64,000 bases of DNA from Octopus vulgaris (lineage: Eukaryota), in assembly GCA_951406725.2 (NCBI GenBank), contig OX597826.1, positions 37,634,001 to 37,698,000 on the forward strand, in the 5' to 3' direction. Positions 33,435-34,899 of this stretch are shown here, piece after piece. The notes under the pieces were generated by a model. That model saw only the letters and a list, made by a program, of their open reading frames with translations, was not told the origin of the DNA and did no database searches. The position numbers and the translations under genes were made by a program. Position 1 is the first letter of the stretch, and each line of letters starts with the position of its first letter.

Positions 33435-34073
33435 CTACCGGAGTCATTCTTATTGCTCATTTATATATATATATATATATATATATATATATATATATAC
33501 ATACACACACACACACACACATATATATATATAAATATATATATAGGCGTCTGTGTATAAATAAGGAACGATGCACCTGCGTGTATAAATGCGTGTGTGT
33601 GTGTGCGCGTGTCTACATGCGTATATAGGCGTATGTTGGGATATTGATATGCGCCTAGTAATAATAAAGTTTTATCACCCGATCAACAACCTGAACCCAT
33701 TCCAGCTCAATGCGTCTGCATGGTGCCAATGATCAACAACTATCAAGAAACTTATCCCTACCAACTGGTCTACCGATGATCTGCTCATACACTATCACAC
33801 TTTATAGCGTGTCTTATTCTAATCTAATGTATTCTATGGTGAAGTTCTCTTTATTCATTGTTTTGTATTTTTTCTTTATAATTTTTTTCTCAATTACTTG
33901 TTGTTCGTATTCTCAACCTGGCAACTTAGTCTATCCCTTGCTATTCTTCATTCTTCCTCAATGTATTTTAGATACGACTACTGTCAGAATGTTCCAGTTA
34001 AGCTTAAGGGCGAAATGTCAATTATTTACATTATTTACATTTGACAGATATTTGTCCTTATATTCTTTGTTTT

Positions 34074-34119
34074 AACACAACGTTTCGGCTGATATACTCT
34101 CCAGCCTTCATCAGGTGGC
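34074..34119 (-). ncRNA. Minimal type I hammerhead ribozyme
   Basis: gccac-CTGATGA-a-ggctg...cagcc-GAAA-cg-TT-gtgtt. Stem III is reduced to the AACGTT palindrome. Confidence 0.8.
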
Positions 34120-34292
34120 TTGGAGAAATTTCGAACCTGAGTTCTCATTCCTAAGGTATTTTTCGATGTTGTTGCTATTATTATTATTATTATTATTATT
34201 ATTATTATTATTGTTATTATTATTATTATTATTATTATTATTATTATTATTATTATTATTATTATTATTATTATTATTATTATTATTATTCA

Positions 34293-34362
34293 GGTCACTG
34301 CTTGGAATCGAACTCGGAATCTTGGGATTAGTAGCCCGCATTCTTAACCACTACGTCATTCG
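34293..34362 (-). promoter_or_regulatory. tRNA-derived Pol III internal promoter
   Basis: tgacgTAGTGGTTAAG (A box) ... gggCTACTAAtccc anticodon-like arm ... GAGTTCGATTCC (B box). Confidence 0.75.
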
Positions 34363-34899
34363 ACGGATATTTGTCATCTTGGTTGTTGTTAATTCAACGT
34401 TTTAGCTGATATAATCTCCAGCCTCCATCAGGTGTCTTGGGGAAATTTCCTCAATTATGTAAAGAGAAATCAAGATATATCACCGGAAAAGATACTTCCG
34501 CATTGTGAGATACATTGGAAGTCATTGTATAGTTTCCCAGCCACGAAGCTGGGCAGGAGGTTTCGAAATGATGGTTGCGATAAATAAAGTCTCCAGTATA
34601 TTCCATCTTCCGTATGAATTGCTTTTATCATATATATGCGTACATACATATATATATATATATGTGTGTGTGTGTGTGTGTGTGTGTGTGTGTGTGTGTG
34701 TGTGTGTGTGTGTGTGTGTGTATGTGTGTATGTATGTATGTATGCATGTATGTACGTATACACATACATATATATGCACATAAATACTGTGTTGGGCCAA
34801 ACGCTTTGCAATATTCTGGTAACTTGCTTTAATCGTCAAGTTAAACTAAAAGTAACCAGACATTCAAAGCAGAGATCATCGTGTTGCAGCGTCTGAAGC

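What the first reader, a model, noticed from the sequence alone, without database searches (positions are those of the whole stretch)
34018..34450. tRNA-headed hammerhead retroposon: candidate Pol III SINE/retrozyme hybrid
Seen, on the minus strand: decayed HHR (34436-34391), then a tRNA-like A box/anticodon arm/B box (34362-34293), (AAT)n, an intact minimal HHR (34119-34074) and a short (taaataatg)2 tail. The two HHR positions are 317 nt apart, and the sequence after the first HHR runs straight into the tRNA head, so the unit is head-to-tail. The sense strand has no T4 Pol III terminator. Known: tandem type I HHR units define non-LTR retrozymes that form circular RNAs, and Schistosoma SM-alpha repeats pair a tRNA-like promoter with an HHR. 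Inference: an ORF-less element transcribed by Pol III, end-processed or circularised by its ribozyme, and probably mobilised by Penelope-like RT. I know of no description of this in cephalopods but cannot check.
Basis: partly seen in the sequence, partly recalled or inferred. Interest (0 to 1): 0.85.

Follow-up and report, generated by a model that had tools for sequence, protein, structure and literature searches.

The report
Penelope retrotransposon with captured tRNA promoter
This is the end piece of an abundant Penelope-type jumping gene that carries a tRNA-derived segment just before its hammerhead ribozyme, and because most copies begin exactly at that segment it likely acts as an RNA polymerase III promoter that turns a protein-coding transposon into a source of thousands of short SINE-like copies.

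Summary
The motifs are real, but the unit is neither a retrozyme nor an independent SINE. Head-(AAT)n-HHR-tail is the pseudo-LTR plus first ~50 codons of a ~2.6-kb Penelope/Poseidon-type element (RT + GIY-YIG); the tRNA-like head starts 29 nt after its stop codon. The window's head-to-tail junction occurs once in 2.8 Gb; 0 of 100 sampled copies have a direct partner and 59 have an inverted one. No 3' end falls at the ribozyme cut. New: 37 of 45 insertions reaching the head stop within ~20 nt of its first base (2.9 expected); genome-wide the head motif outnumbers the motif 70 nt upstream 10,882 to 2,086. The family majority keeps perfect A/B boxes on a decayed cloverleaf and has no TTTT on the sense strand over the whole unit (P 0.03-0.13). 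Best reading (0.6): a captured tRNA-derived Pol III promoter sets the RNA start, and Penelope RT, initiating internally at the tail, makes short SINE-like copies from the same masters as the long ones. Main rival: RT snap-back at a native hairpin. No direct Pol III or cleavage evidence; RNA reads were uninformative.

The parts
34451..34458 (-). 8-nt direct repeat (ATAATTGA), left copy; possible target-site duplication
   Evidence: sequence; shared words of >=8 nt at both ends are uncommon in the family (5 of 100), so inferred
34357..34449 (-). 5'-truncated direct pLTR piece (family positions 43-138 of the mid-HHR-tail segment), joined to the head by a 3-nt ATG overlap
   Evidence: 84/96 to family majority; junction unique in genome
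34391..34436 (-). decayed minimal type I hammerhead (A9>G, G12>A, stem I broken)
34291..34359 (-). tRNA-derived head (+7..+75); A box 34358-34348 (one change), B box 34313-34305
   Evidence: 64/69 to family majority; majority 46-49 identities over 75-77 columns with host tRNA-Arg/Ala genes
34176..34290 (-). (AAT)38 microsatellite, length variable among copies
34133..34173 (-). segment holding the predicted ORF start ATG (34148-34146)
   Evidence: open from this ATG through HHR and tail into the RT N-terminal region in real copy L122
34074..34119 (-). minimal type I hammerhead, core complete, one stem I mismatch, predicted cut 34079/34078; also read as ORF codons
   Evidence: features as in PMC4209133 passages
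34020..34073 (-). PLE tail up to the first of the two family 3'-end clusters (predicted RT initiation site)
   Evidence: 3' ends cluster at segment positions ~145-156 and ~177-185
34018..34025 (-). 8-nt direct repeat, right copy (overlaps tail by microhomology)

Best explanation
The window holds a short, decayed insertion of a Penelope/Poseidon-type retrotransposon whose pseudo-LTR contains a tRNA-derived A/B-box segment that likely works as a Pol III promoter, so that the element's own RT, predicted to start internally at the tail, would copy the RNA from tail back to that start and leave SINE-like ~250-350-nt copies. SHOWN: order ORF stop - 29 nt - head - (AAT)n - ATG - HHR - tail = ORF start; pile-up of 5' ends at the head start; two 3'-end clusters past the HHR; inverted partners; long and short copies share variants and age. 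INFERRED: transcription starts ~6 nt before the head in tandem master copies (pLTR followed by ORF); RT binds downstream of the tail and starts at the nearest tail (short copies) or the next one (long, randomly truncated copies); the template is uncleaved at the HHR; the cDNA end usually folds back (inverted partner) and rarely jumps to a second RNA (the window's direct piece). UNTESTED: Pol III occupancy, cleavage, translation.
For: Head follows the ORF end in 25 of 30 and 26 of 30 ORF-selected loci (three loci shared); full unit with direct pLTRs in L122; RVT_1 E=2.7e-6, C-terminus aligns to a GIY-YIG-positive homolog. 5' ends: 93 insertions, 54 reach the head, 9 stop inside it, 37 stop at -16..+4, 8 go further; background hazard 0.27%/nt on both sides, 2.9 expected, P=2e-36. 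Two other samples agree: 24 of 29 and 15 of 18. Genome counts 10,882 head vs 2,086 upstream motif, controls 0, ~16,000 vs ~2,400 after calibration. 33 of 39 piled-up cases are solo or have a partner starting far downstream, so they did not use the native palindrome. Majority A and B boxes match the recalled type 2 consensus perfectly, 34 nt apart, while no cloverleaf is called. No TTTT in the 2.46-kb majority; copies 0.38 per kb; 1 of 26 control PLE units is TTTT-free and none has a tRNA-like head. Long vs short: same variants, 5.0% vs 5.1% non-CpG divergence. Internal RT initiation, tail, HHR-independent insertion and pLTR TSS are described for other PLEs (PMC11167929; PMC8557442).
Against: No direct Pol III evidence. 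The head start sits on the loop of a native imperfect hairpin (-17 kcal/mol; this area holds the most stable windows of the 3' 1.1 kb), which could stop RT by itself. Ends are spread over -7..+7, not one base. TTTT absence is weak alone: P 0.03-0.13 by null, TTT runs are also low (12 in the majority), and one control family is nearly TTTT-free without a head. No full-length copy seen starts at the head (4 reach the 5' pLTR). RNA reads show equal strands and no start or end pile-up. The sample is the first 100 exact motif matches on one chromosome.
Confidence: 0.6

Rival explanations
1. Structural stop: a long Pol II transcript is copied until RT passes the native hairpin around the head start, where the cDNA snaps back or falls off; the tRNA-like piece is a passenger (old SINE head) without promoter function.
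For: Imperfect inverted repeat centred on the head start, -17.2 kcal/mol, top-ranking region; 19 of 78 piled-up cases over three samples are near-perfect palindromes at that centre; characterised PLE promoters are intron-containing, Pol II-type (PMC8557442 passage).
Against: 59 of 78 piled-up cases are solo or asymmetric; fold-back also accompanies deep truncations with no hairpin; a -15 kcal/mol hairpin near -350 has no ends among the 5 insertions passing it; does not explain perfect A/B boxes or the lack of TTTT.
Confidence: 0.22
2. An independent tRNA SINE with a PLE-derived HHR tail propagates from its own short masters, using PLE proteins in trans.
For: Short copies outnumber ORF-linked ones ~6-7 fold and look like a SINE2; copies with the longer tail could serve as secondary sources.
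Against: The same head is in the autonomous element; no diagnostic subfamily differences and equal age; 24 of 78 piled-up or deep cases aside, some short copies carry upstream PLE bases (-6..-1).
Confidence: 0.09
3. RNase P cuts a long transcript at the tRNA-like +1 and the 3' fragment is reverse transcribed.
For: +1 is the commonest single start (8 of 33).
Against: 15 of those 33 start at -6..-1; acceptor and T stems are decayed, no tRNA call at normal thresholds.
Confidence: 0.06
4. Non-LTR retrozyme: tandem HHR units cleave, circularise and spread as ~317-nt circles.
For: The window and L002 are direct head-to-tail pairs; 42 of 100 sampled HHRs keep stems and core; dimer-type HHR.
Against: Window junction 1 hit in the genome; L002 joins at other bases; 0 of 100 direct partners; 1 of 156 arms ends at the cut site and that is an internal deletion; upstream HHR is dead; no back-joint among the 15 joints shown of 56.
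Confidence: 0.03

Closest known systems
Penelope/Poseidon PLEs (PAc of Anolis, PMC11167929; clade features in PMC8557442)
   Same: Single ORF RT + C-terminal GIY-YIG with CCHH and DKG, HHR overlapping the ORF start, two 3'-end sites ~30 nt apart, 5' truncation, inverted partners, partial tandems.
   Different: pLTR holds a tRNA-derived A/B-box head and (AAT)n instead of a T-rich, intron-type leader; 5' ends pile at the head; unit lacks TTTT.
Schistosoma Sm-alpha / Sj-alpha SINE-like HHR repeats (known to me through review PMC6765202 passage; originals not read)
   Same: Pol III-type promoter upstream of a type I HHR; upstream unit would transcribe the downstream one.
   Different: Those are ORF-less tandem repeats with a canonical HHR; here the module is inside an autonomous PLE, the HHR is minimal and copies are mostly inverted or solo.
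Metazoan non-LTR retrozymes (PMC7229834; bioRxiv 10.64898/2026.07.22.740005)
   Same: ~300-nt unit, type I HHR, PLE link.
   Different: No tandem arrays, no recurrent junction, no ends at the cut site.
tRNA-derived SINEs (SINE2; octopus OK/OR1/OR2 recalled, paper not held)
   Same: tRNA-Arg-like head, A/B boxes, tens of thousands of short copies; ~68-70% alike to another SINE head in two flanks.
   Different: Head is part of the autonomous partner; simple repeat is internal; 3' end is a PLE tail. Identity with OK/OR1/OR2 or a Repbase/Dfam entry could not be tested.
R2 retrotransposons (review PMC6765202 passage)
   Same: Precedent for a protein-coding retrotransposon made by a polymerase other than Pol II and carrying a 5' ribozyme.
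   Different: R2 borrows the rDNA promoter; here the promoter would be internal and Pol III-type.

Membership tests
EN+ PLE, Penelope/Poseidon type | single ORF with RT and C-terminal GIY-YIG | tested here: met
   RVT_1 below cut-off but E=2.7e-6; GIY-YIG not hit directly but C-terminus aligns at 40% to P0071, which passes the cut-off
EN+ PLE, Penelope/Poseidon type | DKG and CCHH motifs, no Zn-finger linker | tested here: met
   read from P0001/P0002 against PMC8557442 passages
EN+ PLE, Penelope/Poseidon type | pLTR, inverted 5'-truncated partner, optional 30-40-nt tail | tested here: met
EN+ PLE, Penelope/Poseidon type | minimal HHR (nucleotide between 9 and 10.1, G10.1-C11.1, palindromic 15.2-16.2) | tested here: met
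EN+ PLE, Penelope/Poseidon type | RT phylogeny with named clade members | not tested
   no named reference sequences held; assignment is by motifs
non-LTR retrozyme | tandem units each with a complete HHR | tested here: not met
   0 of 100 direct partners; window upstream HHR decayed; junction unique
non-LTR retrozyme | circular RNA | tested here: inconclusive
   no back-joint among joints shown, library not suited
SINE2 | tRNA-derived head with A and B boxes | tested here: met
   no Rfam/ARAGORN call
SINE2 | own non-autonomous master lineage | tested here: not met
   same variants and divergence as ORF-linked copies
SINE2 | Pol III transcription | not testable with these tools
   only indirect: 5'-end pile-up, boxes, no TTTT
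Sm-alpha-like repeat | ORF-less tandem repeat with canonical HHR | tested here: not met

The most novel reading that the evidence does not exclude
An autonomous, protein-coding retrotransposon that swapped its Pol II promoter for a captured tRNA-derived Pol III promoter, purged Pol III terminators from its whole 2.6-kb unit, and gives birth to its own SINE-like copies through internal RT initiation; its uncapped RNA would need cap-independent translation, possibly tied to the hammerhead inside the ORF start.
Probability: 0.3. Interest if true: 0.85.

Novelty: new variant of a known kind. Interest (0 to 1): 0.6.

Why it matters
Characterised PLE promoters are intron-containing pLTR promoters, and SINEs are defined as partners of LINEs. 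A tRNA head inside an autonomous PLE gives a direct route from PLE to SINE-like copies and a model for how Sm-alpha-like HHR repeats could arise. It makes two open questions testable in one construct: which polymerase makes PLE RNA, and what the PLE hammerhead is for. It also means SINE finders will misfile ~16,000 heads. About 6 in 10 copies sit in inverted pairs, a predicted source of double-stranded RNA (untested).

Tried and rejected
Rfam at gathering and E-value thresholds and ARAGORN found no tRNA or HHR in the window or family heads; ARAGORN calls the majority head only at score 70 with a wrong fold. MFE folds of window HHRs do not give the HHR fold; the majority gives stems I and II. 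No RNA holder listed on record; raw RNA reads of organism B were strand-symmetric, 64-70% ran on into unlike sequence (read-through of embedded copies), no start/end pile-up, so no evidence either way on Pol III or circles. No relative in viral contigs. No second PLE family of this genome was recovered as an in-genome control: candidates in L086 and L200 were this family and the P0003 search listed this family where checked. An A+B-box hit in control L310 is not tRNA-like. No intact copy seen among 137 and 86 protein matches (best open frame without stops 569 aa). Close relatives P0003-P0024 have no DNA context available, so the age of the head capture is open. Earlier findings: none. Literature searches showed no description of a tRNA head or Pol III promoter in a PLE; Repbase/Dfam, subscription papers, Ohshima and Okada 1994 and Lunse 2017 were not available, and no supplements were read, where such a family could be listed.

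Full report
Observation. Rfam and ARAGORN call nothing. An 8-nt repeat flanks the whole, possibly a target-site duplication.

It is a family. DNA searches gave 2,976 and 2,057 first-look candidates. In 26 of 29 head-selected loci other than the window an HHR follows in the same orientation, two of them after an inserted repeat. A 20-nt HHR motif has 13,435 hits at one mismatch, control 0; about 29,000 after calibration. Runs under five organism labels hold part of the sequence; only organisms A and B were laid.

It is the end of a Penelope-like element. Several loci shared sequence upstream of the head that translates as a PLE endonuclease end. The head follows 29 nt after the stop in 25 of 30 and 26 of 30 ORF-selected loci (three loci in both sets). 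L108 has a 569-aa open frame with an RVT_1 match and 2,923 homologs among 7,999 scored; its C-terminus aligns with a GIY-YIG-positive homolog. L122 is a full unit of about 2.55 kb with direct pLTRs, and is open from the ATG before the HHR through HHR and tail into the ORF; a 55%-identical homolog begins with the same HHR-encoded peptide. So 'mid-HHR-tail' is the ORF start, as in Anolis PAc (PMC11167929, parts 1-2 of 4 read).

Not a retrozyme. The window's junction has one hit in the genome. Of the first 100 exact HHR-motif matches on contig C1, 59 have an inverted partner, 41 none, 0 a direct one. The only other direct pair seen, L002, was selected by the junction query and joins at different bases. 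Of 156 arms, 3' ends cluster 50-60 and 80-90 nt past the cut site and one ends at it, so templates were uncleaved, as reported for PAc. Retrozyme criteria are from PMC7229834 (passages) and the 2026 bioRxiv preprint (part 1 of 5 and passages); HHR features from PMC4209133 (passages).

The unusual part. With +1 the first base of the tRNA-like head, the 100 copies collapse to 93 insertions; 54 reach the head, 9 end inside it, 37 end at -16..+4 (values near -16 are palindromic junctions whose true start is near -6), and 8 run on into the ORF. Truncation risk is 0.27% per base on both sides, so 2.9 were expected (P=2e-36). Two similarity-selected samples agree, 24 of 29 and 15 of 18. Genome-wide a CpG-free head 20-mer has 10,882 hits and one 70 nt upstream 2,086. 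Reads of organism B show the same break, with 412 and 315 loose ends at about -7 continuing as inverted head. The majority head has A and B boxes matching the recalled consensus, 46-49 identities in 75-77 columns with host tRNA-Arg and tRNA-Ala genes among 27 distinct genes of six isotypes, and no sound cloverleaf. Long (60) and short (45) arms share variants and 5% non-CpG divergence (the few low p-values are at CpG sites, some inside the selecting motif), so they come from the same masters.

Pol III compatibility. The majority over 2,456 nt, from 78 non-redundant long loci (depth 2-12 at the 5' end), has no TTTT and 29 AAAA; nulls give P=0.086, 0.13 and 0.03. Real copies have 0.38 per kb, none shared by more than 4 of 51. 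In 61 of 99 fetched PLE loci from other organisms (short matches and some duplicates dropped) observed/expected is 1.16 and 3 have none in the ORF; over ORF-to-HHR units 1 of 26 (about 19 families) has none and none has a tRNA-like head. This is supportive but weak.

Mechanism. Most likely (0.6) the head is a captured Pol III promoter in the pLTR. In a tandem master it starts RNA about 6 nt before +1; RT starts internally at the nearest tail and copies back to the RNA end, giving short copies; the cDNA end folds back (inverted partner) or, rarely, jumps to a second RNA, which would give the window's direct piece joined through ATG. Starting at the next tail gives long, randomly truncated copies. 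The main rival (0.22) is a native hairpin centred on the head start; against it, 59 of 78 piled-up cases are solo or asymmetric (automatic classes, at least one solo is a missed partner). Whether Pol III also makes the coding RNA is open (0.3); ribozyme-linked cap-independent translation has precedent (PMC13725137 passages), but here the cut would fall after the predicted ATG.

Known versus new. pLTR TSSs with introns are described for Penelope and Chlamys-3 (PMC8557442 passages); Pol III plus HHR for Schistosoma repeats (PMC6765202 passages); SINE definition from PMC3531059 (passages). Word finds in PMC10886601, PMC3747384, PMC5786205 and the 2026 Octopus repeat paper PMC13282606 and nine searches showed no PLE with a tRNA head; repeat databases and supplements were not seen. 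Verdict: new variant of a known kind, interest 0.6; the window locus itself is a one-off decayed insertion.

Noticed in passing
window 44180-44260 (+), 38218-38238 (+), 39217-39185 (-), 37994-38014 (+), 32171-32132 (-): Other minimal-HHR-like motifs, probably ends of other PLE families; the one at 44197 is flanked by an inverted copy of its downstream sequence.
   Followed up: partly
window 33084-33239 / 33316-33471: 156-nt inverted repeat, 93% complementary, 76-nt spacer; resembles a PLE fold-back or MITE.
   Followed up: no
window 34451-34640: Left flank is another repeat, with a second partial copy at 51667-51718.
   Followed up: no
L056:1198-1257, L052:854-919: A different tRNA-like SINE head 68-70% alike to the family head; possible donor or sister of the captured head.
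   Followed up: partly
L040, L044, L045 after the (AAT)n: The same other repeat is inserted in the (AAT)n tract of three copies: the microsatellite is a target for another element.
   Followed up: no
L250:3001-4653, L260:288-1646: PLE ORFs from other organisms with 0-1 TTTT where 7 are expected, although their UTRs are T-rich; unexplained.
   Followed up: no
L305-L323: Animal-type PLE ORFs occur in 19 loci of prokaryote genome assemblies, probably host contamination of MAGs.
   Followed up: no
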